A stretch of 64,000 nucleotides of DNA, from the sequence record OR498728.1. One strand, 5' to 3'. Below the pieces are notes generated by a model that worked only from the letters and a program-made list of their open reading frames with translations, ran no database searches and was not told the DNA's origin. This DNA comes from Escherichia phage ZX4221. Below, piece after piece: positions 5,937-23,254 of this stretch; positions within the stretch are counted from its first letter, which is position 1, and each line of letters begins with the position of its first letter. The translations under genes and the position numbers were made by a program.

Positions 5937-6327
5937 AAAAACCTCTCTCTGCTTGTTCGATTTTTGCTCTTAAAATTTCACAATGTTGAAAATGGTAGTT
6001 AGCTTCTTGTTCATGTGTTGCTAACTGCCTTTCAAGAACAGTTTTATAATAACCTGCAAGTTGCTCTTTTGTCAACGGGTGTTCTGAAATAATATCAAGT
6101 CCACTTTCGCCAAGAGGGTTGAATTGTCCATACTCATTGACATTGTAAGTCTCAAACTTGAACAGGCCATTGTTCACAGACTCAATAGGCGACAGTTCAA
6201 CAAGCTCTACAGTAAACCGTGTATACACCTTGTCGCCTCTTGAAACCACATTATTTCCGACAATGCGTACAAGCGAACCATTACGTGTGTACTTAAAAGT
6301 CCCAAAGTCACTAGCCCAAAGCTTCAT
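5929..6327 (-). CDS. hypothetical protein (132 aa)
   Basis: ORF-track ORF; followed on its strand by terminator at 6342..6368. Confidence 0.5.
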   Translation of the reverse strand: MKLWASDFGTFKYTRNGSLVRIVGNNVVSRGDKVYTRFTVELVELSPIESVNNGLFKFETYNVNEYGQFNPLGESGLDIISEHPLTKEQLAGYYKTVLERQLATHEQEANYHFQHCEILRAKIEQAERGFYE

Positions 6328-6341
6328 AATTTTCTCCTTAG

Positions 6342-6368
6342 AAAATAAAAAAGGCTCCCGAAGGAGCC
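6342..6368 (-). terminator. Rho-independent terminator after endolysin gene
   Basis: Minus strand GGCTCC-TTCG-GGAGCC hairpin followed by TTTTTTATTTT. Confidence 0.7.
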
Positions 6369-6378
6369 TATGAAGATA

Positions 6379-6843
6379 TTACTTTGGGTATACACTGTCA
6401 AGATAAATGTCAGCTTCCATTCTACGTCTGTTTTTCAGACCATTTGAAGTGACCTTCTTACCTTTGACTGTAACCTTGTTCCACCACTGCATAGCTTCTG
6501 CACAACCTACCTTGTTACCAGCATTGTGGCGCTTGATAAATGTAGAATCCTGCATAGCTGTGATACCGATGTTGTATGTTTCACTTACAAGTGCATCGAA
6601 CTCATTCTGAGAAGTTGGAGCCTTGATAGCTTTATTCACTGCTGCAACAAACTTCTCAACATCTGCGAGAAGATACTGTTCAGCTTGTTCAGCCGTGATT
6701 TTCATACCCATCTTAACAGGTTTTCCGTCAATACGGATTGTACCATACCCAATTGTTGGGATTCCGGCAGAGTCTTCGTAAGCCTCTAACTTCAGACCTT
6801 CAAAGAACTTAATAGCTTCTAAACCTTTTCTTGAGAGTTGCAT
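6379..6843 (-). CDS. endolysin, T4-lysozyme-like (glycoside hydrolase family 24)
   Basis: N-terminal FEGLKLEAYEDSAGIPTIGYGT matches the T4 lysozyme catalytic Glu/Asp/Thr region; 154 aa. Confidence 0.8.
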   Translation of the reverse strand: MQLSRKGLEAIKFFEGLKLEAYEDSAGIPTIGYGTIRIDGKPVKMGMKITAEQAEQYLLADVEKFVAAVNKAIKAPTSQNEFDALVSETYNIGITAMQDSTFIKRHNAGNKVGCAEAMQWWNKVTVKGKKVTSNGLKNRRRMEADIYLDSVYPK

Positions 6844-8228
6844 TATGCCTCCCCTGCTGGGTTAACTGTAACTGTTGCCGCATTAGATGTCACAGAGCCA
6901 CCTGCACCAGTAACTACACAGGTGTAGCTTCCTGCATCAGTAGTAGTTGCACCTTCTTTGGTGTAAGTTGCAGCAGTTGCGTCTAGGATGTTTTCCTCAC
7001 CCTTCTTCCACTGGTAACCTGTTGCACCTGTTGCCACAACATTCAGCGTTAAGGTCTCACCTTCAGTGATTTCTTGATTGGCTGGTTGTTGAGTGATGAC
7101 AGGAAGAGCATTAACGGTAACCGTTGCAGCATTAGATGTGACTGTTGTACCACCTGCACCAGTAACTACACAGGTATATGAACCAGCATCGGCAGGGTCT
7201 GCTTTAGCTTTCGTGTAAGTTGCACCAGTTGCGCTAGGGATGTTCACATTATCTTTCTTCCATTGATAACCTGTTGCACCTGTGGCCTCAATGCTCAGCG
7301 TCAAACTGCCACCTTCATTGACTACTTGGTTAGTTGGCTGCTTGGTAATAACTGGCAAAGCATTTACCGTGACAGTTGCAGGGTTAGAAGTAACAGAACC
7401 TCCAGCACCAGTTACAACGCAAGTGTAAGAACCTGCATCTGCTGGAAGCGCACCAGATTTGCTATAGTTAGCATTTGTAGCTGATGGGATGTCAGAGCCA
7501 TCTTTCTTCCATTGGTAGCCTGTTGCACCTGTTGCAGTAACTGATAAGTCAATGTTTCCACCCTCATTAATGGTCTGGCTAGAAGGTTGCTGTGTAATCA
7601 CAGGTAGTGCGTTAACAGTAACCGTTGCCGCATCTGAGGTAACACTTGTTCCACCATCTCCAGATACAACACAAGTGTATGAACCAGCGTCAGAAGGTGC
7701 TACAGATTGTTTTGTATAGGTTGCAGATGTGGCACTGGAGATATTCTCACCATCCTTCTTCCATTGATACCCAGTGGCATTAGTTGCGAGAACACTTAGG
7801 GTAAGTGCTCCACCTTCATTGACTGTTTGGTTTGTCGGTTGCTGAGTAATTACTGGTGGCTTAATGGCATCCTTCAACTTAGCATTCAACATTGAGAACG
7901 GTTTAACTCTTGCCAACCATTCACAATACACTGTGTCAACGTCTTTACCATTGATAATTGCATATTGTAAATCCATGAAGAAGTCAGAAGTTCTCATTTG
8001 AGCACCGACGCTGTAAAGCAAATCATCACTAAAAGGAACTTTGTAGTCTGGTTTGTAGTCAAACTTCTTAACCTCTGCGATATCAGCTTCAGGCCAATAT
8101 GAGCTATAGGTGAGTGGTAAAATAGCTTCTTGATATGTTCTAAAATCATATCTCTTACCAGCCTTTACATTTGCGATGAAGCCCTTCACAAATTCTTTGA
8201 AGTCTGGGTAAGTCTTTGCTTTAATCAT
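6843..8228 (-). CDS. protein with four tandem Ig-like repeats fused to an N-terminal domain paralogous to the next gene
   Basis: Four repeats of ~80 aa (VITQQP..NEGG..L..ATGATGYQWKKDG..AGSYTCVV..VTVN); N-terminal ~120 aa aligns by eye with 8225..8596. Confidence 0.6.
   Translation of the reverse strand: MIKAKTYPDFKEFVKGFIANVKAGKRYDFRTYQEAILPLTYSSYWPEADIAEVKKFDYKPDYKVPFSDDLLYSVGAQMRTSDFFMDLQYAIINGKDVDTVYCEWLARVKPFSMLNAKLKDAIKPPVITQQPTNQTVNEGGALTLSVLATNATGYQWKKDGENISSATSATYTKQSVAPSDAGSYTCVVSGDGGTSVTSDAATVTVNALPVITQQPSSQTINEGGNIDLSVTATGATGYQWKKDGSDIPSATNANYSKSGALPADAGSYTCVVTGAGGSVTSNPATVTVNALPVITKQPTNQVVNEGGSLTLSIEATGATGYQWKKDNVNIPSATGATYTKAKADPADAGSYTCVVTGAGGTTVTSNAATVTVNALPVITQQPANQEITEGETLTLNVVATGATGYQWKKGEENILDATAATYTKEGATTTDAGSYTCVVTGAGGSVTSNAATVTVNPAGEA
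6900..7860. repeat. Four ~240 bp tandem coding repeats (Ig-like domains)
   Basis: Nucleotide and protein periodicity visible inside CDS 6843..8228. Confidence 0.7.
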
Positions 8229-8596
8229 TTCTTTTTAGCCTCTAAACGTGCGTTTAATCTAAAATAGCCTTTATGTTGTGGAGACACATCACCAACAACG
8301 ATACCTTCAACTTTATAACCTTTACCGATTACATACTGGATATCCATAAGAAATGTACCAAGTCCTACAATGTGGAACATTGGATATAATAACTTATCTG
8401 AATCTGGGAGATTAATATCTGGGTTGTAGGTAGGTTGTTTACTAGTAGGTGTAATATCTTCTTCAGGCCATTTACTTAGTCTCCATGTCAAAGGTGTTGG
8501 GATAACATCATTAAGATTGTACCTCCCACCATTCTCCACGGAATGGATATAGGATTGTAGGAAGCAATAAAAGTCTTTTGCACTCTTAGCTTTCAT
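8225..8596 (-). CDS. hypothetical protein, paralog of the N-domain of the Ig-repeat protein
   Basis: Shared pattern K.K...DF..F....V..G.RY.......PLT....WPE.DI ... SD.LLY ... MD.QY.I with 6843..8228. Confidence 0.5.
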   Translation of the reverse strand: MKAKSAKDFYCFLQSYIHSVENGGRYNLNDVIPTPLTWRLSKWPEEDITPTSKQPTYNPDINLPDSDKLLYPMFHIVGLGTFLMDIQYVIGKGYKVEGIVVGDVSPQHKGYFRLNARLEAKKK

Positions 8597-8607
8597 TAAA
8601 TATCCTT

Positions 8608-8636
8608 ATAAATAGATAAAGGGGCATTAGCCCCTG
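8608..8636 (-). terminator. Possible rho-independent terminator
   Basis: Minus strand AGGGGC-TAAT-GCCCCT hairpin followed by TTTATCTATTT (interrupted T-run). Confidence 0.4.
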
Positions 8637-8643
8637 TTTACAC

Positions 8644-9234
8644 TTAAGCTTTGGTCTTAAGTAGGTTCTTAAGTTTTTTGAGATTCATGCTCTCGTCAAA
8701 CTTAAAACCAAATCCATTGACATAATCAATGAACTCGGATTTCTTACTAAGTGATAGCGCGTAACTCATATCAAAGTTATTACTTGTTTCTGCGTCTGGA
8801 CTAGAGTTCACATCAAATGAAATTTCTGTAGGCTCTTGCTTGCTACTTCTCATATTATCAATCAATAGGCATGTATAGTTCGCTGGATAGAAGTTTGCAC
8901 TACCATCAACATACCCATACTTATTGTTGTGAATAAGGTTTGAAAATACCTTAAGAAATGTTTCTGAGTCGTGGCATACAAGTTTGAATTGGCTGCATTC
9001 TCCAAGAGCCACTAAAGAATAAGGGCTTTCACTATCAATGTCGTAGTTTGGATTTGATGTTGTAACCGTCACACGCATCAAGTTATTAGCAATAGTCTTC
9101 TGCTTGAAAGAATTTGGGACATAGTGAAGACCTCTATCACACTGATTAACTAACTCTTTAAGTAGGTCATTTGCATATGGTGAATTAATTGATACAGAGC
9201 CATCACTATTATAGTTAAAACTTACTGTTAACAT
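8644..9234 (-). CDS. hypothetical protein (196 aa)
   Basis: ORF-track ORF. Confidence 0.5.
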   Translation of the reverse strand: MLTVSFNYNSDGSVSINSPYANDLLKELVNQCDRGLHYVPNSFKQKTIANNLMRVTVTTSNPNYDIDSESPYSLVALGECSQFKLVCHDSETFLKVFSNLIHNNKYGYVDGSANFYPANYTCLLIDNMRSSKQEPTEISFDVNSSPDAETSNNFDMSYALSLSKKSEFIDYVNGFGFKFDESMNLKKLKNLLKTKA

Positions 9235-9853: not shown

Positions 9854-10225
9854 ATGAAAAACAGAACAAACAAAGGCCAGTTTAAAAAAGGCCAGTCTGG
9901 AAACCCATCTGGAAGACCAAAAGGCTCTCGTAACAAAAGCTCACTTGTAAAAGCTCAACTGACCATTGATAATTCTGCTGAGTTTGCTGCAAAGTTGTTT
10001 GAGGCGATTGTTACAAGGGATGCTGCTAAGCTTGCAGAGTTCGGTTTAAACACAGATGACGTAACCATCAAGAGCATGATTGAGGTCGGTAAAACTATCA
10101 TGACTCACTCAGCAGGTGAGATGAAAGCAATTGCAGCAGATACTAAGAAGACCCCTGATAATGGTGGTCAACCACAGACAGATAACAAACCAACGTTCTC
10201 TGCTGTAGCGACTCTCAAAAAATAA
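9854..10225 (+). CDS. hypothetical protein with GNPSGRPKG motif (123 aa)
   Basis: ORF-track ORF; AAGAGG Shine-Dalgarno 8 nt upstream of ATG. Confidence 0.55.
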   Translation: MKNRTNKGQFKKGQSGNPSGRPKGSRNKSSLVKAQLTIDNSAEFAAKLFEAIVTRDAAKLAEFGLNTDDVTIKSMIEVGKTIMTHSAGEMKAIAADTKKTPDNGGQPQTDNKPTFSAVATLKK

Positions 10226-10237
10226 TTTTAAAAGGTG

Positions 10238-10267
10238 TTGACAGACTCTACAAAGTTACTCTAAAGT
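10238..10267 (+). promoter_or_regulatory. Possible sigma70-like promoter
   Basis: TTGACA at 10238, 17-18 nt spacer, weak -10 (TAAAGT). Confidence 0.3.
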
Positions 10268-10306
10268 CTGTCACATCAAACAACAAATGAGAAAAGAGAG
10301 TAAAAT

Positions 10307-11722
10307 ATGAGCGAATTATTTAAACATGCGCACCTTCATGCAGGTCGAACTGAAAATGGTGCTGTAAACCATACTTCATCAATGTCTGCTCTGGTAGACT
10401 TCTACAAAGCCGCTGGCTCAAGCCGTAGCAATGTAGAAATCTTACCAGACCTGTTCTACAAAGCTTTGCGTGAGGATGTTGATGTTGCAGTTCGTATTTT
10501 ACTGCATATGCGAGATGTACGAGAAGGTATGGGTGAGCGTAAAGCTTTCCGAACTGTTTTACTTCAAGCGATTGAAGATAAGGTTTTAGAACCTACACAG
10601 GTTCTTCGCATTATGGATAAGATTGCAGAGCTTGGTCGTTTTGATGACTTCAAAATCTTCGTAGGTACTCGTTTTGAGACAGATGCCTTCAAACATTTAG
10701 AAGCAGCATTACTAGACCCTGCAACAGCAGGTTTAGCGGCTAAGTGGTTACCACGAGTAAAACCACGCCACAAACAGTTTGTAAAACGTTTCTGTAAGTT
10801 TGCAAACTTAAGTGAGAAGGAGTATCGCACACTGTTATCTGCACTGTCCGATACGGTTGAGCAAAAAATCTCTGCTAATGAGTTTGGTAAGATTGACTAC
10901 AGCAAGATTCCTTCACTCGCTGCTGCACGTTACCAAAAGCTCTTTAACCGTAAAGATGGTGAACGTTACAAAGCTTATATCGAGTCACTCTCAAAGGGTG
11001 AGGCTAAGATTAACGCTGGTGCTGTTTACCCATACGATGTGATTAAATCTATCAAGTATGGTAATGCAGGTGTTGCTAATGAGCAGTGGAAAGCACTACC
11101 AAACTGGATGGCAGAGGGTGAAAACATCTTGTGTATGACTGATGTTTCAAGCTCAATGTCTTGGGTGAATCTTGGTTCAATCACTGCCCTTGATATTGGC
11201 GTATCACTTGCCTTGTATGTAGCAGAACGCAATACAGGTTGCTTTAAGAATGAGTTAATGGTTTATTCAACAAACCCTCACTTCATCGAACTGAGTGGTG
11301 ATTTGAGAAACCGTCACCGTCAGGTAATGCGTCATGTTGAATATGGTTCAACTAACTTACAAGCAGCTTTTGACCGCATTCTTGAAATAGGTAAGAGAAA
11401 CAACTTGACTCAGAAAGATATGCCAAGTAAGCTTATTATCTTCTCTGATATGGAGTTTAATCAGGTTGATGGTGCAAATGGTCGTACAAACTTTGAAGCA
11501 ATTCAGAGTAAGTACAAAAAAGCTGGATACGAAATGCCACAACTAGTATTCTGGTACTTAGCAAACCGTAATGGTACTTGCGAAGTATCTGTTAAAGATA
11601 ATGGTGTAGCAATGGTATCAGGGTTCTCTCCAGCCACTTTAAAAGCTCTGCTTGGTGGTGAGAAGTTTGACCCAATCAACGTAATGCTCAAAGCAGTAAT
11701 GGTTGACCGTTACATCTGGTAA
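10307..11722 (+). CDS. vWA (MIDAS) domain protein, putatively Ro60/TROVE-like RNA-binding protein
   Basis: 471 aa; C-terminal half has MIDAS-like TDVSSSM ... GSTN ... FSDME; N-terminal TENGAV...ALVDFYKAAGSSR resembles the start of TROVE domains from memory; good RBS; gene is certain, TROVE assignment is inference. Confidence 0.6.
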   Translation: MSELFKHAHLHAGRTENGAVNHTSSMSALVDFYKAAGSSRSNVEILPDLFYKALREDVDVAVRILLHMRDVREGMGERKAFRTVLLQAIEDKVLEPTQVLRIMDKIAELGRFDDFKIFVGTRFETDAFKHLEAALLDPATAGLAAKWLPRVKPRHKQFVKRFCKFANLSEKEYRTLLSALSDTVEQKISANEFGKIDYSKIPSLAAARYQKLFNRKDGERYKAYIESLSKGEAKINAGAVYPYDVIKSIKYGNAGVANEQWKALPNWMAEGENILCMTDVSSSMSWVNLGSITALDIGVSLALYVAERNTGCFKNELMVYSTNPHFIELSGDLRNRHRQVMRHVEYGSTNLQAAFDRILEIGKRNNLTQKDMPSKLIIFSDMEFNQVDGANGRTNFEAIQSKYKKAGYEMPQLVFWYLANRNGTCEVSVKDNGVAMVSGFSPATLKALLGGEKFDPINVMLKAVMVDRYIW

Positions 11723-11886: not shown

Positions 11887-11963
11887 CTCTGTTTAGCTCA
11901 GCTTGGTAGAGCGTTCCGTTTGGGGCGGTAAGGCCGGAGGTTCAAGTCCTCCAACAGAGACCA
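11887..11963 (+). tRNA. tRNA-Pro (anticodon TGG)
   Basis: Hand-folded: acceptor CTCTGTT/AACAGAG, D-stem GCTC/GAGC, anticodon loop TTTGGGG, T-arm GGAGG-TTCAAGT-CCTCC, CCA encoded. Confidence 0.75.
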
Positions 11964-11970
11964 AATTAAT

Positions 11971-12048
11971 GTTCCAGTAGACAAAACGGTAAAGTCACCA
12001 CTCTTTCAAAGTGGATATTTGAGGGTTCAAATCCCTTCTGGAACGCCA
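11971..12048 (+). tRNA. tRNA-Glu (anticodon TTC)
   Basis: Acceptor GTTCCAG/CTGGAAC, anticodon stem CCACT/AGTGG with loop CTTTCAA, T-loop TTCAAAT, CCA encoded. Confidence 0.7.
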
Positions 12049-12055
12049 GTCTTGA

Positions 12056-12128
12056 CAGAAGACCAATTGCAGCAAACTTAATCTTATTCATCTGACACGA
12101 AATCGGACAAAGAAGAGATTTGGTCTGG
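12056..12128 (+). ncRNA. Stem-closed structured element A (CAGAAGACC ... GGTCTGG family), Y-RNA-like candidate
   Basis: 5' CAGAAGACCAA pairs with 3' TTGGTCTGG (7 bp); conserved 5' box CAGAAGACCnnnTnCAGCAA; inner hairpin AATCT/AGATT; directly follows tRNA-Glu. Confidence 0.4.
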
Positions 12129-12139
12129 TCATTAAGAAT

Positions 12140-12216
12140 TGCGGGTATAGAGAAAGGGCGTCTCACATGTCTCATTAGCATGGTATCGGCAGGTTCGACT
12201 CCTGCACCCGCCTCCA
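12140..12216 (+). tRNA. tRNA-Met (anticodon CAT), copy 1
   Basis: T-arm GCAGG-TTCGACT-CCTGC, acceptor TGCGGGT/ACCCGCC with mismatch at pair 1-72, anticodon loop CTCATTA; CCA encoded. Confidence 0.6.
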
Positions 12217-12222
12217 ATTTTG

Positions 12223-12283
12223 CAGAAGACCGTATTCAGCAACAAACTACTTTTTGCGGATAAAAGAAAAAAACACGGTCTGG
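12223..12283 (+). ncRNA. Stem-closed structured element B (same family)
   Basis: 5' CAGAAGACCGT pairs with 3' ACGGTCTGG (7 bp); same 5' box as element A. Confidence 0.4.
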
Positions 12284-12294
12284 CAATGTATTAA

Positions 12295-12371
12295 GGTTAG
12301 GAAGCACATAAGGTATGTGCGGTCGCCTGTTAAGCGAATGGCACAGGGTTCGAATCCCTGACTAACCGCCA
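12295..12371 (+). tRNA. tRNA-Asn (anticodon GTT)
   Basis: D-stem GCAC/GTGC, anticodon loop CTGTTAA, T-arm CAGGG-TTCGAAT-CCCTG, acceptor GGTTAGG/ACTAACC, CCA encoded. Confidence 0.7.
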
Positions 12372-12380
12372 AATTTAAAT

Positions 12381-12468
12381 GTGTCGTTATCCCGTAGATG
12401 GTAGCGGTGGGGACTGTAAATCCCTTGTCATTGAGACTCGGTAGGTTCGACTCCTACACGGCACACCA
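12381..12468 (+). tRNA. tRNA-Tyr (anticodon GTA), long variable arm
   Basis: 88 nt; acceptor GTGTCGT/ACGGCAC, anticodon stem GGGGA/TCCCT loop CTGTAAA, T-arm GTAGG-TTCGACT-CCTAC, CCA encoded. Confidence 0.7.
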
Positions 12469-12474
12469 AATAAA

Positions 12475-12552
12475 GGTTATGTAGTTTAATCTGGTTAAAA
12501 TACTCCCCTGTCACGGGAGATGATGAGGGTTCAAATCCCTTCGTAACCGCCA
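12475..12552 (+). tRNA. tRNA-Asp (anticodon GTC)
   Basis: Anticodon stem CTCCC/GGGAG perfect, loop CTGTCAC, T-loop TTCAAAT, acceptor GGTTATG/CGTAACC, CCA encoded. Confidence 0.75.
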
Positions 12553-12639
12553 AATTATAATAAGTATTTCAAGATGATGTTTTGAGAGGGCTATTTAGCC
12601 CCTCCCTTAAAGAGTTCTTACGAGTATTCTTTAAAGGAG

Positions 12640-12713
12640 CAGAAGACCAAATGCAGCAAGAATGTATGAAATTTCAAGCCAATTTAATTTTGAAAATTTA
12701 AACTTGGTCTGGC
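12640..12713 (+). ncRNA. Stem-closed structured element C (same family)
   Basis: 5' CAGAAGACCAA ... 3' TTGGTCTGG; inner hairpin AAATTTCAA/TTGAAATTT. Confidence 0.4.
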
Positions 12714-12725
12714 TCAACAAATTTA

Positions 12726-12857
12726 CAGAAGACCGTTTACAGCAAAACTTAAACAATCTATTTCTCCGGTAAAGAAAAGGCGAAGGTTCGATTCCTTCAC
12801 TCGGCAGATGTCGAGTTGGTGTAATGGTAGCACTTAAGATGATAAACAACGGTCTGG
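12726..12857 (+). ncRNA. Stem-closed structured element D enclosing a circularly permuted tRNA-like module; Y-RNA (YrlA-type) candidate
   Basis: Outer 8 bp stem AGACCGTT/AACGGTCT; inside, in order: anticodon-like arm TTTCT-CCGGTAA-AGAAA, T-arm GAAGG-TTCGATT-CCTTC, ACTCGGC-A-GAT-GTCGAGT acceptor hairpin, D-arm GTGT-AATGGTA-GCAC. Confidence 0.5.
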
Positions 12858-12860
12858 TAA

Positions 12861-12999
12861 TTATCTTTGTAGATAAGTTATTAAGCTTCCCTGTGAGTAT
12901 GCGACCACAAAGGTGAAAGGGTAGATTCTAGATTTAACCCGAAAAGACACATCGCTACAGACCTTAAGCAAGTCTGGGTAGCTTATCTACAAAGATAAT
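12861..12999 (+). ncRNA. Structured element bounded by a perfect 17 bp inverted repeat
   Basis: TTATCTTTGTAGATAAG (12861-77) and its exact reverse complement (12983-99) enclose ~105 nt with internal hairpins. Confidence 0.4.
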
Positions 13000-13004
13000 T
13001 TAAT

Positions 13005-13080
13005 GGAAGTGTAGCAGAATGGTGATGCGGCAGACTTTTAATCTGACAGGCGATGGGTTCGAATCCCTCCACTTCTACCA
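13005..13080 (+). tRNA. tRNA-Lys (anticodon TTT)
   Basis: Acceptor GGAAGTG/CACTTCT, anticodon loop CTTTTAA, T-loop TTCGAAT with imperfect T-stem ATGGG/CCCTC, CCA encoded. Confidence 0.6.
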
Positions 13081-13084
13081 ATAT

Positions 13085-13161
13085 GGTTCAGTCGCAGATA
13101 AGGTAATGCAGGGGTTTCATAAGCCCTATGAATGTGGGTTCGATTCCCATCTGAACCTCCA
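13085..13161 (+). tRNA. tRNA-Met (anticodon CAT), copy 2 (initiator, elongator or Ile-lysidine not resolved)
   Basis: Acceptor GGTTCAG/CTGAACC perfect, anticodon stem GGGGT/GCCCT loop TTCATAA, T-arm GTGGG-TTCGATT-CCCAT, CCA encoded. Confidence 0.7.
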
Positions 13162-13162
13162 A

Positions 13163-13238
13163 GCTGGTATAGTTAAGAAGGTTATAACACTCCCCTGATA
13201 AGGGAACATCGGTGGTTCGATTCCACCTACCAGTACCA
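13163..13238 (+). tRNA. tRNA-Ile (anticodon GAT)
   Basis: D-stem GTTA/TAAC, anticodon loop CTGATAA, T-arm GGTGG-TTCGATT-CCACC, acceptor GCTGGTA/TACCAGT, CCA encoded. Confidence 0.7.
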
Positions 13239-13253
13239 ATTCCAATAAAGTTG

Positions 13254-13282
13254 TTGACATTGAGATGTGACCACTTTATAGT
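13254..13282 (+). promoter_or_regulatory. Internal sigma70-like promoter within tRNA array
   Basis: TTGACA 13254-59, 17 nt spacer, TATAGT 13277-82. Confidence 0.55.
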
Positions 13283-13574
13283 AACTAAAATACTTCATAA
13301 TATGTATAATTCAAACACCAATACATGAGTGTTAGACGTAACACAATGTGGGGAAATTTGTTGTACATATTCTGAATAGTTTTCGTTGCGTAGCGTCTAT
13401 TTTGCAAACTTAAAATAAATGCAAACGACAATGTTTTTCTGGCAGTAGCTTGATAGGCTAAACACCAGTGAGGTCTTCCAACCCCTCATCAAAGAATTTG
13501 GCGTACTCGCCCACGGTATGATTAATAAGGTGGGCATCTTTAAGGGCTTTTTAAGAGAGTCTTTAAAGATTAAT

Positions 13575-13651
13575 GCACCCTTAGTTCAACTGGACAGAGC
13601 AAATGACTTCTAATCATTGAGTTACAGGTTCGAATCCTGTAGGGTGTGCCA
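13575..13651 (+). tRNA. tRNA-Arg (anticodon TCT)
   Basis: Anticodon stem AATGA/TCATT perfect, loop CTTCTAA, T-arm ACAGG-TTCGAAT-CCTGT, acceptor GCACCCT/AGGGTGT, CCA encoded. Confidence 0.75.
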
Positions 13652-13793
13652 AATAGTTAGCAGATTGCTTAGACGACCTTATCGGGTCTCCGTGTAAGGA
13701 GGTGGTCTGTATCTCATGTTTTCCAGAACATGTAAATAATCTGAGAAGGGGCTTTACAGTGTTGCGAAAATACGGTAAGCTTCGAATTATAGT

Positions 13794-13876
13794 GTGGGAC
13801 GATGTTAAGACTCTAAGGCATGAGCAACGGCCTCCAAAACCGTTTCAAAGGGGTTCAACTCCTCCGTCCCATGCCA
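13794..13876 (+). tRNA. tRNA-Trp-like (anticodon CCA) with atypical extended D-region
   Basis: Acceptor GTGGGAC/GTCCCAT, anticodon arm ACGGC-CTCCAAA-ACCGT, T-loop TTCAACT, CCA encoded; about 8 extra nt between acceptor and D-stem, so canonical fold not achieved by hand. Confidence 0.4.
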
Positions 13877-13889
13877 AAGTCTTATTAGG

Positions 13890-13977
13890 GGTAGGTAGCG
13901 GCTAATGGTAGCCAAACTGTCTTGAAAACAGTTGCCACTGTAGAGATACGGTGAGGGTTCGACTCCTTTACTTACCG
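13890..13977 (+). tRNA. tRNA-Ser (anticodon TGA), long variable arm, CCA not encoded
   Basis: Acceptor GGTAGGT/ACTTACC, 3 bp D-stem, anticodon stem ACTGT/ACAGT perfect with loop CTTGAAA, ~20 nt variable arm, T-loop TTCGACT. Confidence 0.6.
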
Positions 13978-14235
13978 CCTAATAAGATTTTACACCGTCC
14001 ATGCTTGCTCGCATTTTCGGTTTATCCCTCGTGTATTGTCGTACACACTGATAAAGCACCTAGTAGGTGTCACGGAGAAGAGATAATATCAAGCTCTCCA
14101 AAGGTTCTAGTCACCGGATTGAACAAGACTATGCAAAGACCTAAATAGGTCTTTTTAGAGGGCTTCTAAGGTTATTACAGCTTGTTGTGGAACCTTGTTG
14201 CTTAGGTTCTTAGAAGTTCTCTAAAAAGATTTAAT

Positions 14236-14312
14236 GCACCTATAGCCCAACTGGTAGAGGCAGCAGACTTAGAATCTGCTCAGTGTGAGTTCGAATCTCT
14301 CTAGGTGTACCA
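14236..14312 (+). tRNA. tRNA-Leu-type anticodon TAG, class I (short variable arm) architecture
   Basis: 77 nt; acceptor GCACCTA/TAGGTGT, anticodon stem GCAGA/TCTGC perfect, loop CTTAGAA, 5 nt variable loop, discriminator A, CCA encoded. Confidence 0.6.
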
Positions 14313-14319
14313 AATTAAT

Positions 14320-14395
14320 GCAGGTGTAGCAAAATGGTTATGCGGCTGACTCTTAATCAGTAAGACGATGGGTTCAATTCCCTCCACCTGTACCA
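14320..14395 (+). tRNA. tRNA-Lys (anticodon CTT)
   Basis: Paralog of tRNA-Lys(TTT): acceptor GCAGGTG/CACCTGT, anticodon loop CTCTTAA, T-loop TTCAATT with same imperfect T-stem, CCA encoded. Confidence 0.6.
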
Positions 14396-14401
14396 AACAT
14401 T

Positions 14402-14477
14402 GGGGATGTAGTTTACATGGTTAAAACATAAGTTTTGCAAACTTAAGTACAGGGTTCAATTCCCTGCTTCTCCACCA
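14402..14477 (+). tRNA. tRNA-Ala (anticodon TGC)
   Basis: G3:U70 wobble pair present in acceptor stem; anticodon stem TAAGT/ACTTA perfect, loop TTTGCAA; T-arm CAGGG-TTCAATT-CCCTG; CCA encoded. Confidence 0.75.
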
Positions 14478-14483
14478 ATTAGT

Positions 14484-14558
14484 GCATCCATAGTTTAAAC
14501 GGGAAAATTACAGTCTTCCAAACTGAGGTTGAGGGTTCGATTCCCTCTGGATGCTCCA
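14484..14558 (+). tRNA. tRNA-Gly (anticodon TCC)
   Basis: Acceptor GCATCCA/TGGATGC perfect, anticodon loop CTTCCAA, T-arm GAGGG-TTCGATT-CCCTC, CCA encoded. Confidence 0.75.
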
Positions 14559-14565
14559 AATTAAT

Positions 14566-14641
14566 GCTCCTATCGTATAATTGGCTATTACGGTTGCCTT
14601 GTAAGCAACTTATCAGGGTTCGAATCCTTGTGGGAGCACCA
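14566..14641 (+). tRNA. tRNA-Thr (anticodon TGT)
   Basis: Anticodon stem GTTGC/GCAAC perfect, loop CTTGTAA, T-arm CAGGG-TTCGAAT-CCTTG, acceptor GCTCCTA/TGGGAGC, CCA encoded. Confidence 0.75.
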
Positions 14642-14645
14642 ATTC

Positions 14646-14731
14646 AGAGGTCAAGTGAAAGACCGCTGGTGTCAACTGAAGACCGTAACAAATTCCACGG
14701 AGTTGAGTTAGCGGCACAACTTCAGACCTCT
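14646..14731 (+). ncRNA. Structured element E, divergent relative of the CAGAAGACC family
   Basis: Outer stem AGAGGTC/GACCTCT; contains CTGAAGACCGTAACAAATT resembling the family 5' box; nested stems CCGCT/AGCGG and CTGAAG/CTTCAG. Confidence 0.3.
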
Positions 14732-14736
14732 TTCAT

Positions 14737-14811
14737 ACTCGCTTAGTTTATATGGTAAAACATCACCCTTACAAGATGGAGAAAAAGGTTCAAGTCCTTT
14801 AGTGAGTACCA
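14737..14811 (+). tRNA. tRNA-Val (anticodon TAC)
   Basis: D-stem GTTT/AAAC, anticodon loop CTTACAA, T-arm AAAGG-TTCAAGT-CCTTT, acceptor ACTCGCT/AGTGAGT, CCA encoded. Confidence 0.7.
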
Positions 14812-14812
14812 T

Positions 14813-14890
14813 GTTCCAGTATCCCAATTGGCAGAGGATGCAAGCTCAAACCTTGTACTAGTGACGGTTCGAATCCGTCTTGGAACACCA
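14813..14890 (+). tRNA. tRNA-Leu-type anticodon CAA, class I (short variable arm) architecture
   Basis: 78 nt; acceptor GTTCCAG/TTGGAAC, anticodon stem GCAAG/CTTGT, loop CTCAAAC, ~6 nt variable loop, T-arm GACGG-TTCGAAT-CCGTC, discriminator A, CCA encoded. Confidence 0.55.
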
Positions 14891-14895
14891 ATTTT

Positions 14896-14971
14896 GCAGG
14901 ATTAGTTCAAATGGATAGAGCAACAGTCTACGAAGCTGTTAATAGGGGTTCGAATCCCTTATCCTGCGCCA
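14896..14971 (+). tRNA. tRNA-Arg (anticodon ACG)
   Basis: Acceptor GCAGGAT/ATCCTGC perfect, D-stem GTTC/GAGC, anticodon loop CTACGAA, T-loop TTCGAAT, CCA encoded. Confidence 0.75.
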
Positions 14972-14989
14972 GATAAGTAAGAGGAATTT

Positions 14990-15232
14990 ATGCAAACATT
15001 AATCGTCGTTGAACATGAAAATTCCAATAGTATTGAGTTTGTAAGGGTTCCCACTATAGATACCCACATTTTCTTGAAAGTCGGATGGGGATGTGACCCA
15101 ATAAAAGTAGAAAATTTTATTGGTCATTACTTTGGTGGAAGACAACTTAAAAGCGTCAATTTTGAGACAATGTTACCAGAAAACTCAGAAACAAATAATA
15201 ATGTTTATCTCCTTACGAGGATTAGACAATGA
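14990..15232 (+). CDS. hypothetical protein inside tRNA array (80 aa)
   Basis: AAGAGGA Shine-Dalgarno 6 nt before ATG; stop overlaps next start (ATGA). Confidence 0.45.
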   Translation: MQTLIVVEHENSNSIEFVRVPTIDTHIFLKVGWGCDPIKVENFIGHYFGGRQLKSVNFETMLPENSETNNNVYLLTRIRQ

Positions 15233-15786
15233 GATATCTGAAGTATGCTTCATGGATTTTCCTAGCTTTGTTAGACCCATTGGCAGCAACCTTAGCAGTT
15301 ATCTTAGCACCCTTTGTAGTCCCATTCTACAGTGAGAAGAAAGGCCATCTACCTTTTGGATTCAGATGGATGGAGACATATGACAACCCGATTGATGGCG
15401 ATGAAGGTCATATGAAACGATGGGCTAAGATTAGAAAGATTGGTAAGCTCGGTGTCTATATGCAGAGAGTTGGCTGGCTCTGGAGAAACAAAGCTTATAA
15501 CTTCTCTTACCATGTGTTAGGAAGAGATGTAAAAGATGTTACTAAGTGGAAAGGTAATATCAACGTGAGTTCTGACCCTGAAGATAATCAGACAGGTTAT
15601 CTCCTAATGTGGAACAGTAATGCTTGGGGATTATTTGCTTTTATCCCATCAATTAAAATCTTTGGTAAACAATTCTACTGGAGAATTTATGTTGGATGGA
15701 AACTTAAAAGTGTTGTCCCAGAAGAAAGAGCATTCTCAAGGGAAAGAGTTATGTTGGCATTCTTTATTCATCCACTGAGAAAGTAA
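15229..15786 (+). CDS. hypothetical protein with hydrophobic N-terminus inside tRNA array (185 aa)
   Basis: ORF-track ORF; translationally coupled to 14990..15232; N-terminal WIFLALLDPLAATLAVILAPFVVPF looks membrane-associated. Confidence 0.5.
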   Translation: MRYLKYASWIFLALLDPLAATLAVILAPFVVPFYSEKKGHLPFGFRWMETYDNPIDGDEGHMKRWAKIRKIGKLGVYMQRVGWLWRNKAYNFSYHVLGRDVKDVTKWKGNINVSSDPEDNQTGYLLMWNSNAWGLFAFIPSIKIFGKQFYWRIYVGWKLKSVVPEERAFSRERVMLAFFIHPLRK

Positions 15787-15794
15787 AGATTTAA

Positions 15795-15870
15795 AGGGGA
15801 TTAGTTTACAAGGTTAAAACCTCGGTCTTTGAAATCGAAGAAGTTGGTTCAATTCCAACATCCCCCGCCA
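15795..15870 (+). tRNA. tRNA-Gln (anticodon TTG)
   Basis: Anticodon stem TCGGT/ATCGA, loop CTTTGAA, T-arm GTTGG-TTCAATT-CCAAC, A1-C72 mismatch at top of acceptor, discriminator G, CCA encoded. Confidence 0.65.
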
Positions 15871-15872
15871 AT

Positions 15873-15951
15873 GCTCCATTACTCCAATTGGCAGAGAGGC
15901 CAGACTTAAAATCTGTGTTATGTATCGGTTCGAATCCGATATGGAGTACCA
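15873..15951 (+). tRNA. tRNA-Leu-type anticodon TAA, class I (short variable arm) architecture
   Basis: 79 nt; acceptor GCTCCAT/ATGGAGT, anticodon stem CAGA/TCTG, loop CTTAAAA, ~7 nt variable loop, T-arm ATCGG-TTCGAAT-CCGAT perfect, discriminator A, CCA encoded. Confidence 0.55.
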
Positions 15952-15956
15952 AATTT

Positions 15957-16032
15957 AGCGGTATAGCATAACTGGCAATGCAGCAGTCTCTGAAGCTGTC
16001 TTATTAAGGTTCAAATCCTTATGCCGCTGCCA
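15957..16032 (+). tRNA. tRNA-Gln (anticodon CTG)
   Basis: Acceptor AGCGGTA/TGCCGCT, D-stem GCAT/ATGC, anticodon loop CTCTGAA, T-arm TAAGG-TTCAAAT-CCTTA, discriminator G, CCA encoded. Confidence 0.65.
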
Positions 16033-16063
16033 CTTCTAAGGGTTCTTACGAGAGTCCTTAAAT

Positions 16064-16139
16064 GTGGCCTTATCATAAATGGTAATGACCCATGCTGTGA
16101 ACATGGTCTATACGGGTTCAAATCCCGTAGGTCACCCCA
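16064..16139 (+). tRNA. tRNA-His (anticodon GTG)
   Basis: Anticodon stem CCATG/CATGG perfect, loop CTGTGAA, D-stem TCAT/ATGA, T-arm ACGGG-TTCAAAT-CCCGT, discriminator C; no encoded G-1 (preceding base is T). Confidence 0.7.
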
Positions 16140-16145
16140 ATTTAT

Positions 16146-16221
16146 AGTCCAAGTAGCTTATATGGTTAAAGCGCGTGTCTGAAAAACATGAGAAGAGGGT
16201 TCAAATCCCACTGGACTACCA
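16146..16221 (+). tRNA. tRNA-Phe (anticodon GAA), irregular acceptor/linker geometry
   Basis: Anticodon stem CGTGT/ACATG, loop CTGAAAA, D-stem GCTT/AAGC, T-loop TTCAAAT; acceptor pairs only as 6 bp or with a 4 nt linker to the D-stem; boundaries uncertain. Confidence 0.55.
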
Positions 16222-16237
16222 ATTTCAAAGGTGCTTA

Positions 16238-16972
16238 ATGAAAGAGATGACAGAACAAGGTAAGGAGATTTTTAATCTCTTAAAAACCGGTAGAGGGTTT
16301 TCTAATCCCCTTATTACTGGTGCAGCAGTTCTCGGTGGAACCGTAGCTGCCTCTACATCACTTGTAAGCTCTATTAGCTCTGTAACAGACCCTACAATAA
16401 AGGATAAGCTTATTGCTGCTGGACTTACAACAGTTCTGCTTAACAGCTTTACAACGAGTCTGACAAGCACTACATCAACCACTAAGACACTGACAGATTA
16501 TGGTCAAAAGTCCATTGATGAGTTTTCATCACGTATGCAGGTAGCAAAAGGATATTCCAATGTTATGGGTGCAGCAGGAGAACAAGTCGGTTGTACACCA
16601 TTTAGTGGTATTATGGGTGTTGCTACAGAATATGGTCAAAAAGCTATTGACACAATTAACAGTGCACTAGATGGTGTTAATGATGTGTTAAGTGACTTAC
16701 AAGATGCTATTGATGAAGGTCTTGATACTATTTCTGATTTAGCTAACCAAGCTGTTAGCAAGATTAATGAAGGTATCTCGAAGATTACAGCTTATGCAGA
16801 TGAAGTTGTGCAGATGATTGAAGAAGAAGCTGCCCTTATTGCAGAGTACCTTAAAACGAATATCAATGGGTTCTTAGCAGGTATCTTACCAGACTGGTTT
16901 GATGATGCTTGTAAAACTGGTGTAATTGATACTATTGCAACACCAGAAATGAAGAACGCATTACAGAAATAA
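16238..16972 (+). CDS. hypothetical Ser/Thr-rich protein (244 aa)
   Basis: ORF-track ORF trimmed to first ATG with RBS (AAAGG) that does not overlap tRNA-Phe. Confidence 0.5.
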   Translation: MKEMTEQGKEIFNLLKTGRGFSNPLITGAAVLGGTVAASTSLVSSISSVTDPTIKDKLIAAGLTTVLLNSFTTSLTSTTSTTKTLTDYGQKSIDEFSSRMQVAKGYSNVMGAAGEQVGCTPFSGIMGVATEYGQKAIDTINSALDGVNDVLSDLQDAIDEGLDTISDLANQAVSKINEGISKITAYADEVVQMIEEEAALIAEYLKTNINGFLAGILPDWFDDACKTGVIDTIATPEMKNALQK

Positions 16973-16973
16973 T

Positions 16974-17066
16974 GGAAGATTAACCCTAAAAGGTAAGGGA
17001 GCAGTTTGCTAAACTGCCAGTAGCTGAGAAATCGGTGTACCAGTTCAAGTCTGGTATCTTCCTCCA
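16974..17066 (+). tRNA. tRNA-Ser (anticodon GCT), long variable arm
   Basis: 93 nt; acceptor GGAAGAT/ATCTTCC perfect, anticodon stem GCAGT/ACTGC perfect, loop TTGCTAA, T-arm ACCAG-TTCAAGT-CTGGT, CCA encoded. Confidence 0.75.
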
Positions 17067-17070
17067 ATTT

Positions 17071-17146
17071 GAATCCGTGACAGAAATGGCTATGTGCCTG
17101 TCTGCAAAACAGGTTTATAAGGGTTCGAGTCCCTTCGGATTCTCCA
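17071..17146 (+). tRNA. tRNA-Cys (anticodon GCA)
   Basis: Acceptor GAATCCG/CGGATTC perfect, anticodon stem CCTGT/ACAGG perfect, loop CTGCAAA, T-arm AAGGG-TTCGAGT-CCCTT, CCA encoded. Confidence 0.75.
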
Positions 17147-22876: not shown

Positions 22877-23254
22877 ATGGCATATCAAGGTTTTACTAAG
22901 TTAGGTAAAAGAGAACCTCTGAATGATATCATTCTTTGGGAACAGGTTACCCCAACAGGCCACTCTCGTAAAGAGTACACTCCACAGGCATCTACAGAAT
23001 ATCGTGTAGGCGAAGTTCTGAAAGCAGATGGTACTAAAGTTACAGCAGGACAAGAAGCTCAGGCTGATTCGGTATGTATCGTTAACTTTTATGCAGACCT
23101 GCAACTGTCTTACCACGGTCAGTTGAAAGTTGTTGGCATTTACCGCGACGCAGAACTAAAAGACCTGCTTACTCTTGAGTCAGGTGTTGATGCTGCCGCA
23201 GTCAAGACAGCTCTGGCTGCTAAAGGTATTGATTTCGTACCAACTGGCCTGTAA
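22877..23254 (+). CDS. hypothetical protein, possible head decoration protein (125 aa)
   Basis: Position between protease-scaffold and major capsid gene. Confidence 0.4.
   Translation: MAYQGFTKLGKREPLNDIILWEQVTPTGHSRKEYTPQASTEYRVGEVLKADGTKVTAGQEAQADSVCIVNFYADLQLSYHGQLKVVGIYRDAELKDLLTLESGVDAAAVKTALAAKGIDFVPTGL

What the first reader, a model, noticed from the sequence alone, without database searches (positions are those of the whole stretch)
6843..8596. Ig-repeat protein and its stand-alone N-domain paralog beside the endolysin
CDS 6843..8228 carries four tandem Ig-like repeats fused to an N-terminal domain that is paralogous to the adjacent CDS 8225..8596. Ig-like domains in phages usually decorate virions or mediate adhesion, yet this pair is in the leftward operon next to the lysozyme, not in the structural module. 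The repeat number is likely variable by recombination.
Basis: partly seen in the sequence, partly recalled or inferred. Interest (0 to 1): 0.45.

Follow-up and report, generated by a model that had tools for sequence, protein, structure and literature searches.

The report
Known capsid decoration protein plus paralog
The Ig-repeat gene is the already solved Hoc-like capsid decoration protein (Hex-Dec) of Felix O1-like phages, so it is ordinary; the small gene next to it is a conserved, unstudied copy of its capsid-binding domain.

Summary
CDS 6843..8228(-) has a 122-aa N-domain plus four 83-86-aa Ig-like repeats. CDS 8225..8596(-) is a paralog of that N-domain (36% identity, E 9e-17), and a GH24 endolysin follows.

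The puzzle is already solved in the literature. The window is a Felixounavirus. The Ig protein is Hex-Dec (Bas63, PDB 9NCF chain S) or gp20 (Sf14, 9C2D). [quoted passage not shown] It was found in Felix O1 virions in 2010 (gp36). Variation between 1 and 4 Ig domains is published. I add chimeric repeat units that show several independent in-register recombinations.

The stand-alone paralog is the one part the two cryo-EM papers do not discuss.
- It has the CapBD fold and is under purifying selection (dN/dS 0.13).
- It is conserved in Felixounavirus, Mooglevirus, Suspvirus and a more distant lineage, and is absent from Kolesnikvirus.
- It overlaps the Hex-Dec start codon and is expressed late together with Hex-Dec.
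- It has lost both capsid-anchoring arginines (R79G in 29/29; R107 mostly Q/H).
- It is absent from the published virion protein lists and is a pseudogene in a viable clade.

Its function is unknown. My best guess is a dispensable late accessory protein for head decoration.

The parts
6843..8228 (-). [quoted passage not shown]
   Evidence: phmmer against the PDB: 9ncf_S (Bas63 'Immunoglobulin-like domain protein') E 7e-268 over residues 1-459; 9c2d_S (Sf14 gp20) E 2e-163. Pfam Ig_3 x4. Function taken from PMC12609058 and PMC11821841.
7863..8228 (-). CapBD, aa 1-122, with the capsid-anchoring Arg79 and Arg107
   Evidence: It differs from the solved Bas63 CapBD at 2 of 122 positions (K54E, V74I; read from the alignment). 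R79 and R107 are invariant in 31/31 Hex-Dec sequences. Sf14 R79 and R107 salt-bridge to MCP Asp221 (PMC11821841).
7605..7856 (-). Ig-like repeat R1 (aa 125-208)
7356..7604 (-). Ig-like repeat R2 (aa 209-291)
7104..7355 (-). Ig-like repeat R3 (aa 292-375). This unit is missing from most 3-Ig alleles.
6846..7103 (-). Ig-like repeat R4 (aa 376-461)
8225..8596 (-). Stand-alone CapBD paralog of 123 aa (Felix O1 ORF37, bas63_0125, VpaE1 ORF40c, phrog_4463). Its stop codon overlaps the Hex-Dec start (ATGA).
   Evidence: 36% identity to CapBD, E 9e-17. The AF2 model (pLDDT 64, pTM 0.66) matches only 9ncf_S and 9c2d_S in the PDB (TM 0.61). dN/dS is 0.13. R79 is G in 29/29 paralogs and R107 is mostly Q/H. 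It is expressed late in Felix O1 and is not in the virion protein list.
6379..6843 (-). GH24 endolysin. Its start overlaps the Hex-Dec stop by 1 nt.
   Evidence: Pfam PF00959, E 2.5e-40. This is Felix O1 gp35.
8620..8635 (-). Terminator-like GC hairpin plus T-rich tail, between the upstream 196-aa gene and the paralog
   Evidence: sequence read; conserved in SP116 and mio
6352..6369 (-). Terminator-like hairpin just after the endolysin stop (Felix O1 t35)
   Evidence: Felix O1 Table 2 lists t35 at the equivalent place
23288..24394 (+). Major capsid protein, the binding partner of CapBD. It carries Asp221.
   Evidence: 9ncf_A E 4e-248; D221 read from the alignment
22877..23254 (+). Beta-tulip decoration protein (Dec), the second decoration protein of the same capsid
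   Evidence: 9ncf_J E 6e-76

Best explanation
The window comes from a Felix O1-like myophage (Felixounavirus).

The Ig-repeat protein. CDS 6843..8228 encodes Hex-Dec (Sf14 gp20), a monomeric Hoc-like head decoration protein. Its N-terminal 122-aa capsid-binding domain (CapBD) plugs the centre of the 60 pentamer-proximal hexamers of the T=9 capsid. Arg79 and Arg107 anchor it to Asp221 of the major capsid protein. A flexible string of four Ig-like domains projects outward and probably acts as an adhesion or environment-sensing fibre. The number of Ig units changes by in-register unequal recombination between the 252-nt repeats.

The paralog. CDS 8225..8596 is an old tandem duplicate of the CapBD alone. 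It arose after the split from Kolesnikvirus. It keeps the fold and is under purifying selection. It is translationally coupled to Hex-Dec and expressed late with it. It has replaced both anchoring arginines and many other family-conserved residues.

Inference, not shown: the paralog is a dispensable late accessory protein of head decoration. It may act as a transient binder of hexamers or procapsids, or as an escort for Hex-Dec. It is not a stable, stoichiometric virion component.
For: Identity of the Ig protein:
- PDB hits 9ncf_S (E 7e-268) and 9c2d_S.
- The cognate MCP with D221 and the beta-tulip Dec are in the same window.
- Cryo-EM descriptions and Sf14 mass spectrometry.
- Felix O1 gp36 was found in CsCl-purified virions with 14 peptides and 44% coverage.
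- Bas63 g124 is dispensable on three K-12 strains and matters more on S17-1.

Repeat dynamics:
- Length classes of 210, 294, 377 and 461 aa.
- Orthologous units R1-R4.
- Chimeric units with different junctions: R1|R4 in three different 1-Ig alleles, R2|R4 in mio, R3|R4 in L005.

Paralog:
- Homology and fold.
- dN/dS is 0.13, against 0.044 for the CapBD.
- It is present in about 233 of 252 phage records across Felixounavirus, Mooglevirus and Suspvirus, and in a more distant 87-kb contig with the same gene order.
- Kolesnikvirus and other outgroups have a single copy.
- The GAGG ribosome-binding site and the stop/start overlap are conserved.
- Felix O1 ORF36 and ORF37 are both maximal at 60 min.
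- R79 is G in 29/29 paralogs and R107 is Q/H/N in 27/29. 43 positions are conserved within each group but differ between the two groups.
- It is not among the Felix O1 virion proteins, although smaller proteins were detected.
- It is not among the proteins that the VpaE1 proteome added to the Felix O1 set.
- No density was reported on the remaining hexamers in Bas63 or Sf14.
- It is a pseudogene in the viable phages SP116 and mio.
Against: Nothing argues against the identity of Hex-Dec.

For the paralog, the accessory or assembly role is inference only:
- No interaction was tested or modelled.
- The absence from virions rests on proteome lists with cut-offs. Felix O1 required at least 25% coverage, and VpaE1 Table S2 is held only as an image.
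- It also rests on icosahedrally averaged maps, which weaken the density of a monomer sitting on a 3-fold axis.
- Distant single-copy homologues also lack R79 and/or R107, so losing these arginines does not prove loss of capsid binding.
- The AF2 model is only moderately confident (pLDDT 64).
- Decoration proteins such as Hoc, Soc, gpD and pb10 are not known to need helper proteins (my own knowledge).
Confidence: 0.8

Rival explanations
1. The paralog is itself a minor or labile capsid decoration. It would be an Ig-less plug that occupies the 20 true 3-fold hexamers that Hex-Dec does not bind, or a small fraction of sites. It would have been missed because of icosahedral averaging, loss during purification, or proteomic cut-offs.
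For: It has the same fold as a domain that binds hexamer centres. The Sf14 paper explains Hex-Dec's exclusion from the 3-fold hexamers by a different Asp221 geometry, so a paralog with a changed contact surface could fit those sites. It is expressed late with the morphogenesis genes. Distant family members that lack R79/R107 are the only copy in their genomes and are presumably capsid binders.
Against: Both cryo-EM studies report no density on the other hexamers. It is not in the Felix O1 virion list, although proteins of 9.7-13.7 kDa were found, and it is not among the proteins VpaE1 added. The Bas63 capsid model contains only MCP, Dec and Hex-Dec.
Confidence: 0.2
2. The paralog has taken on a job unrelated to the capsid. 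Examples would be host interaction, anti-defence or decoy activity, or lysis timing, given that it sits in the endolysin cassette.
For: 43 positions are conserved within each paralog group but differ between the groups, including both anchoring arginines. It evolves about three times faster than the CapBD. It is dispensable in a natural clade, as accessory and host-specific genes often are. It lies within 1.4 kb upstream of the endolysin.
Against: The tight and conserved translational coupling to Hex-Dec and the shared late timing, distinct from the lysin's 25-min peak, point to a function with Hex-Dec. There is no hit in Pfam, NCBIfam or PHROGs to any defence, anti-defence or lysis family.
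Confidence: 0.15
3. The paralog is a decaying, functionless remnant of a partial duplication.
For: It has been lost by pseudogenisation in SP116, mio and related records (19 of 252) without loss of viability. It was never detected as a protein in the virion proteomes read here.
Against: dN/dS is 0.13 over 366 pairs with mean dS 0.85. The ORF is intact at 122-124 aa in about 233 records from three genera and in a more distant lineage. It has a good ribosome-binding site (AAGGA). It is transcribed late in Felix O1.
Confidence: 0.04
4. The Ig-repeat protein is a tail protein or tail-borne adhesin, as most GenBank records annotate it.
For: It is annotated 'tail protein' in most records. PHROG 3995 is labelled 'tail protein'. 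The Felix O1 paper called gp36 the 'major tail protein'.
Against: Two cryo-EM reconstructions place the N-domain in capsid hexamer centres (PDB 9NCF chain S, 9C2D chain S). The Bas63 authors state explicitly that the tail annotation is wrong.
Confidence: 0.01

Closest known systems
Bas63 (JohannRWettstein) Hex-Dec, PDB 9NCF chain S (PMC12609058)
   Same: It is the same protein family and has the same architecture: CapBD plus four Ig-like domains. The match is E 7e-268 over residues 1-459, and the CapBD differs at 2 of 122 residues. The gene neighbourhood is the same: paralog, Hex-Dec, endolysin. The MCP is the same and carries D221.
   Different: There are only point differences, mostly in repeat R3. 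Nothing differs in kind.
Shigella phage Sf14 gp20, PDB 9C2D/9C3A chain S (PMC11821841)
   Same: The CapBD is homologous (E 2e-163). The R79/R107 to Asp221 anchoring is described there. It binds only the pentamer-proximal hexamers and was detected in particles by mass spectrometry.
   Different: It has three Ig domains rather than four, and it belongs to the genus Mooglevirus.
T4 Hoc
   Same: It works in the same way. It is a non-essential monomer at hexamer centres with a string of Ig-like domains projecting from a small capsid-binding domain. Proposed roles are adhesion and aggregation sensing (as discussed).
   Different: The domain order is reversed, with Hoc's capsid-binding domain at the C-terminus. 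The capsid-binding domains are topologically distinct and not detectably homologous. Neither the phmmer nor the Foldseek search of the PDB with the paralog found Hoc. No stand-alone copy of the binding domain is known for Hoc (my own knowledge).
T5 pb10 decoration protein (PDB 5LXK, 8ZVI)
   Same: [quoted passage not shown] The Ig domain is detectably homologous (E 4e-12 and 7e-12).
   Different: It has one Ig domain, and its capsid-binding domain gives no match to the CapBD or the paralog.
Kolesnikvirus (Erwinia phage Hena2 / phiEa104) 'structural protein': CapBD plus a Big_2 domain
   Same: It is a distant homologue of the CapBD (profile hits P0101 and P0102; Foldseek E 3e-3 to phiEa104 E5AFW9). 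It sits in the same syntenic slot, between the 196-aa-type gene and the endolysin.
   Different: It is a single copy with no stand-alone paralog. The display domain is Big_2 rather than I-set Ig.

Membership tests
Ounavirinae Hex-Dec / gp20 hexamer-centre decoration protein | N-terminal capsid-binding domain homologous to the solved CapBD | tested here: met
   9ncf_S E 7e-268 and 9c2d_S E 2e-163, aligned from residue 1
Ounavirinae Hex-Dec / gp20 hexamer-centre decoration protein | Anchoring arginines R79 and R107, with the cognate MCP Asp221 in the same genome | tested here: met
   R79 and R107 are present and invariant in 31/31 sequences. The MCP at 23288..24394 has D221. The interaction itself is taken from PMC11821841.
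Ounavirinae Hex-Dec / gp20 hexamer-centre decoration protein | C-terminal string of 1-4 Ig-like domains | tested here: met
   Four Ig_3 / Ig_2 / I-set stretches; repeat boundaries
Ounavirinae Hex-Dec / gp20 hexamer-centre decoration protein | Physically located on capsid hexamers of this particular phage | not testable with these tools
   Inferred from near-identity to Bas63 Hex-Dec and MCP
T4 Hoc family | Ig-like domains at the N-terminus and the capsid-binding domain at the C-terminus, homologous to Hoc | tested here: not met
   The domain order is reversed. The CapBD and the paralog match only 9ncf_S and 9c2d_S in the PDB, by sequence and by fold. The Bas63 authors report a distinct topology.
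CapBD domain family (applied to the stand-alone paralog 8225..8596) | Sequence and fold homology to the CapBD | tested here: met
   BLASTP E 9e-17; phmmer E 3e-12; Foldseek TM 0.61 to 9ncf_S and 9c2d_S, the only hits below E 1e-3. The model is of moderate confidence (pLDDT 64).
CapBD domain family (applied to the stand-alone paralog 8225..8596) | Capsid-anchoring R79 and R107 | tested here: not met
   G in 29/29 paralogs at position 79. At position 107: Q 14, H 11, N 2, K 1, R 1.
CapBD domain family (applied to the stand-alone paralog 8225..8596) | Fused display domain (Ig or Big_2) | tested here: not met
   122-124 aa in all lineages, ending right after the CapBD
CapBD domain family (applied to the stand-alone paralog 8225..8596) | Present in purified virions or in capsid density | not testable with these tools
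   The literature is negative. It is not in the Felix O1 list or among the VpaE1 additions, and no density was reported on the other hexamers. None of these studies targeted it.
Phage tail protein (the GenBank / PHROG 3995 label) | Located in the tail | tested here: not met
   The solved homologues are capsid chains. The annotation is called incorrect in PMC12609058.

The most novel reading that the evidence does not exclude
The stand-alone CapBD paralog is an unrecognised third player in Ounavirinae head decoration. It would be a late, co-translated protein without Ig domains that binds capsid or procapsid hexamer centres or Hex-Dec itself. In doing so it would set where or how much Hex-Dec is displayed, for example by confining Hex-Dec to the 60 pentamer-proximal hexamers or by capping the 20 three-fold hexamers. 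That would make it a dedicated regulator or partner of a Hoc-like decoration protein, which I believe has not been described before (my own knowledge).
Probability: 0.25. Interest if true: 0.45.

Novelty: already known. Interest (0 to 1): 0.22.

Why it matters
For the Ig-repeat protein this matters little. It is a solved and published decoration protein, and the main practical point is that 'tail protein' annotations in hundreds of Felix O1-like genomes are wrong.

Two modest additions come out of this check.

1. Chimeric repeat units show that Ig-domain number changed repeatedly by in-register recombination. This supports the view that display length is a quickly tunable trait. Hex-Dec is conditionally important on host S17-1 (PhageMaP).

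2. [quoted passage not shown] It gives a cheap and specific experiment: knock out bas63_0125 and look at Hex-Dec occupancy. This could explain why Hex-Dec decorates only one of the two hexamer classes of a T=9 capsid.

Felix O1-like phages are used for Salmonella and E. coli biocontrol and as display scaffolds, so knowing every protein that touches the capsid surface has some applied value.

Tried and rejected
1. Programmed -1 frameshift fusing the paralog to Hex-Dec. An AAAAAG lies 3 nt before the ATGA overlap. I rejected this because the motif is absent in Mooglevirus and in L028/L031, and the frame offset differs in Suspvirus.

2. A shared late-promoter motif upstream of the paralog. TATTTATAAGG gave 4 matches against 1.7 expected, none upstream of structural genes. 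No sigma-70-like site lies in 8597..8643.

3. AF2 of a paralog-linker-CapBD fusion, to test heterodimerisation.

4. A word-indexed protein search with the CapBD returned almost only 210-aa one-Ig forms, so it could not give a repeat-number census. I used 28 IMG/VR loci instead.

5. VpaE1 proteome Table S2 is held only as an image, and the PhageMaP supplement is not held. The per-gene values for the paralog could not be read.

6. The 141-aa ORF upstream of the distant CapBD-Ig protein P0103 (L041) as a second, independent stand-alone copy. Only the first 27 residues are similar (E 7e-4 pairwise; hhalign probability 12%). This is inconclusive.

7. A wider family. An exhaustive profile search of 1.84 billion representatives gave only 13 hits, one of them spurious, all from phages that resemble Ounavirinae in gene neighbourhood where a long enough contig could be read.

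8. Two other phage gene-essentiality preprints contain no Felixounavirus.
Full report
**Observation**

The ORF listing gives 6843..8228(-) at 461 aa, 8225..8596(-) at 123 aa and 6379..6843(-) at 154 aa.

- Pfam finds four Ig_3 / Ig_2 / I-set stretches in the 461-aa protein. It finds Phage_lysozyme in the 154-aa protein and nothing in the 123-aa protein.
- The four repeats are aa 125-208, 209-291, 292-375 and 376-461. They are 66-77% identical as protein and 63-71% as DNA. TRF sees the 252-nt period.
- The N-domain (aa 2-119) aligns to the whole 123-aa protein at 36% identity, E 9e-17.
- The paralog's TGA overlaps the Hex-Dec ATG (ATGA). The Hex-Dec stop overlaps the endolysin start by one base.
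- Terminator-like hairpins at 8635..8620 and 6369..6352 on the - strand bracket the three genes.

**What the window is**

Megablast of 6300-9300 finds 239 phage records, all Felix O1-like, infecting Escherichia, Salmonella, Shigella and Citrobacter. The best matches are E. coli phages SME50 (99%) and vB_EcoM_Shy (98%). Most records annotate the Ig gene as 'tail protein'.

**What the Ig-repeat protein is**

A sequence search of the PDB gives 9ncf chain S (E 7e-268, residues 1-459) and 9c2d/9c3a chain S (E 2e-163). These come from the cryo-EM structures of Bas63 (PMC12609058) and Sf14 (PMC11821841).

Both papers describe the protein, called Hex-Dec in Bas63 and gp20 in Sf14, as follows:
- It is a Hoc-like monomeric decoration protein.
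- The Ig-like domains are flexible and unresolved.
- The gene lies more than 10 kb outside the structural module.

In Sf14 the CapBD is the first 118 aa. Arg79 and Arg107 salt-bridge to Asp221 of three of the six capsid subunits, and the protein was detected in particles by mass spectrometry.

The window protein has R79 and R107. Its CapBD differs from that of Bas63 at 2 of 122 residues. The window also encodes the cognate MCP (23288..24394, E 4e-248 to 9ncf_A, D221 present) and the beta-tulip Dec (22877..23254).

In Felix O1 the same gene is ORF36, next to lysin ORF35. gp36 was found in CsCl-purified virions in 2010 with 14 peptides and 44% coverage, and was mislabelled 'major tail protein'.

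In a Bas63 knockout screen, g124 was dispensable on three K-12 strains and more important on S17-1.

The N-domain is a structural, capsid-binding domain, and the protein is in the virion.

**Repeat number**

The Bas63 paper already reports 1-4 predicted Ig domains across Felixounavirus. In 28 loci where both genes could be read, Hex-Dec is 210/211 aa (3 loci), 294/298 aa (13), 377 aa (9) or 461 aa (3).

The units are orthologous. The 4-Ig form is R1-R2-R3-R4, most 3-Ig forms are R1-R2-R4, and most Felixounavirus 2-Ig forms are R1-R4.

Several units are chimeras with different junctions:
- L001/SP116: R1|R4
- L022: R1,R1|R4
- L024: R1|R4,R4
- mio unit 2: R2|R4
- L005 unit 3: R3|R4

This is direct evidence for several independent in-register unequal recombinations.

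**The paralog: a real gene with the same fold**

- phmmer of the 123-aa protein against the PDB hits only 9ncf_S and 9c2d_S.
- An AF2 model (pLDDT 64, pTM 0.66) matches only those two chains in the PDB below E 1e-3 (TM 0.61).
- In BFVD it matches its Sf15 orthologue, Hex-Dec proteins, and the phiEa104 BIG2 protein.
- It is phrog_4463, 'unknown function', with no Pfam or NCBIfam hit.

**The paralog: distribution and origin**

tblastn finds it at 76-100% identity in about 233 of 252 phage records from Felixounavirus, Mooglevirus and Suspvirus. It always lies between the 196-aa gene and Hex-Dec.

A more divergent 87-kb metagenomic contig has the same order: 195-aa gene, 122-aa paralog, 298-aa Hex-Dec, lysozyme.

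Outgroups have a single CapBD-family gene in that slot:
- Kolesnikvirus Hena2 has CapBD plus Big_2, followed by the endolysin.
- L043 has CapBD followed by a further roughly 85 residues (the contig ends right after the gene).
- L037 has CapBD plus a Lys/Ser-rich tail, followed by a lysozyme.

An exhaustive profile search of 1.84 billion representatives found only 13 proteins. The duplication therefore arose within Ounavirinae, after the split from Kolesnikvirus.

**The paralog: selection and divergence**

- Nei-Gojobori dN/dS is 0.13 for the paralog and 0.044 for the CapBD.
- 34 positions are conserved and identical in both groups. These are mostly hydrophobic and aromatic residues, plus the WPE.DI, LLY, F.MD.QY and LNA.L motifs.
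- 43 positions are conserved within each group but differ between them.
- R79 is G in 29/29 paralogs. R107 is Q, H or N in 27/29.
- However, distant single-copy homologues also vary at these two sites. Their loss suggests a changed specificity. It does not prove that capsid binding is lost.

**The paralog: expression and location**

- The paralog has an AAGGA ribosome-binding site.
- The GAGG ribosome-binding site for Hex-Dec lies inside the paralog's 3' end, and the stop/start overlap is conserved in all lineages.
- In Felix O1 RT-PCR, ORF36 and ORF37 are both maximal at 60 min, together with the packaging and morphogenesis genes. ORF35 (lysin), ORF38 and ORF32-34 peak at 25 min.
- gp37 is not among the Felix O1 virion proteins, although proteins of 9.7-13.7 kDa were detected.
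- The VpaE1 proteome added only gp54, gp58 and gp68 to the Felix O1 set. The paralog there is ORF40c, still 'hypothetical'.
- Both cryo-EM papers report no density on the other hexamers. The words 'paralog' and 'duplication' do not occur in the Bas63 paper, and 'gp19' and 'gp21' do not occur in the Sf14 paper.

**The paralog: dispensability**

19 of the 252 records have only the Hex-Dec hit. In SP116 and mio the paralog is a pseudogene carrying the same lesion: the start codon is lost, about 220 nt are deleted internally, and there are frameshifts. These are viable isolates.

**Mechanism**

Shown, here or in the cited papers:
- Hex-Dec is a capsid decoration protein anchored by its CapBD.
- The repeat number changes by recombination.
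- The paralog is a selected, late-transcribed protein with the CapBD fold. It is coupled to Hex-Dec, has a diverged surface, and is dispensable.

Inferred:
- The paralog acts with Hex-Dec during head decoration without being a stable stoichiometric virion component. It may bind hexamers or procapsids transiently, or escort Hex-Dec. I put this specific role at about 0.35-0.4.

Rivals for the paralog:
- A labile or low-copy plug on the 3-fold hexamers (0.2).
- A new function unrelated to the capsid (0.15).
- A functionless remnant (0.04).

**Comparison with known systems**

The protein works like T4 Hoc but is not a member of that family. The domain order is reversed and the binding domain is not homologous. 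It shares the Ig domain, but not the anchor, with T5 pb10. It is a member of the Hex-Dec/gp20 family (see the membership table).

**Verdict**

The finding as written is already explained by published work, so interest is low. The one part I did not find described in any paper read here is the stand-alone CapBD paralog. That is a modest, testable lead, not a surprise.

Noticed in passing
window 9854..11722 (+) and 11887..17146 (+): Divergently transcribed from the paralog/Hex-Dec cluster are a DUF5681 protein and a 471-aa DUF2828/DUF7788/vWA protein that GenBank records call 'RNA-binding protein'. Both are followed by 26 tRNA genes. The pairing of DUF5681 and the DUF2828 protein with the CapBD gene cluster is conserved even in distant lineages (L037, L043).
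   Followed up: partly
L041:1739-2164 (+), upstream of P0103 at L041:2179-2868: In a distant metagenomic phage, a 141-aa ORF lies directly upstream of a CapBD-Ig protein. It starts MLKAKQYDSFEEL..., which resembles the CapBD N-terminal helix (37% identity over 27 aa, pairwise E 7e-4; hhalign probability only 12%). It may be a second case of a stand-alone copy, or it may be chance.
   Followed up: partly
L037:6001-6462 (protein P0105): A distant single-copy CapBD homologue, directly upstream of a lysozyme, carries a Lys/Ser-rich low-complexity tail in place of any Ig or Big_2 domain. The anchor domain therefore appears to be combined with different display modules in different lineages (I-set Ig, Big_2, low-complexity tail).
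   Followed up: partly
window 8229..8245 (-), the paralog 3' end: An AAAAAG stretch lies 3 nt before the ATGA stop/start overlap, in a position where a -1 slip would fuse the paralog to Hex-Dec. It is not conserved outside Felixounavirus, and the frame relation differs in Suspvirus, so programmed frameshifting is unlikely.
   Followed up: yes
window 6846..7856 (-): The four Ig repeats are more alike as protein (66-77%) than as DNA (63-71%), and the longest exact shared word is 26 nt. The repeats have diverged at synonymous sites, which would lower the rate of recombination between them, yet recombinant alleles are still common.
   Followed up: partly
Bas63 paper PMC12609058, Fig. 3E legend (no window coordinates): The Bas63 baseplate map contains an unassigned density: two helices every 120 degrees around the 'PA'. 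The authors count 23 virion gene products but modelled 22. Nothing links this density to the paralog, but it is one place where a small unassigned late protein could sit.
   Followed up: no
Shigella phage vB_SflM_004 (proteins P0049 and P0096): In this record both genes look damaged. The paralog is 114 aa with an internal deletion, and the Hex-Dec call is only 82 aa. This is either a natural double loss or a sequencing or assembly error.
   Followed up: no
window 8644..9234 (-): The 196-aa protein upstream of the terminator (phrog_4034, unknown function) is syntenic with the CapBD gene in every lineage examined, including Kolesnikvirus and the distant metagenomic contigs. One distant homologue carries a faint Phage_Inh_N Pfam hint (L037).
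   Followed up: no
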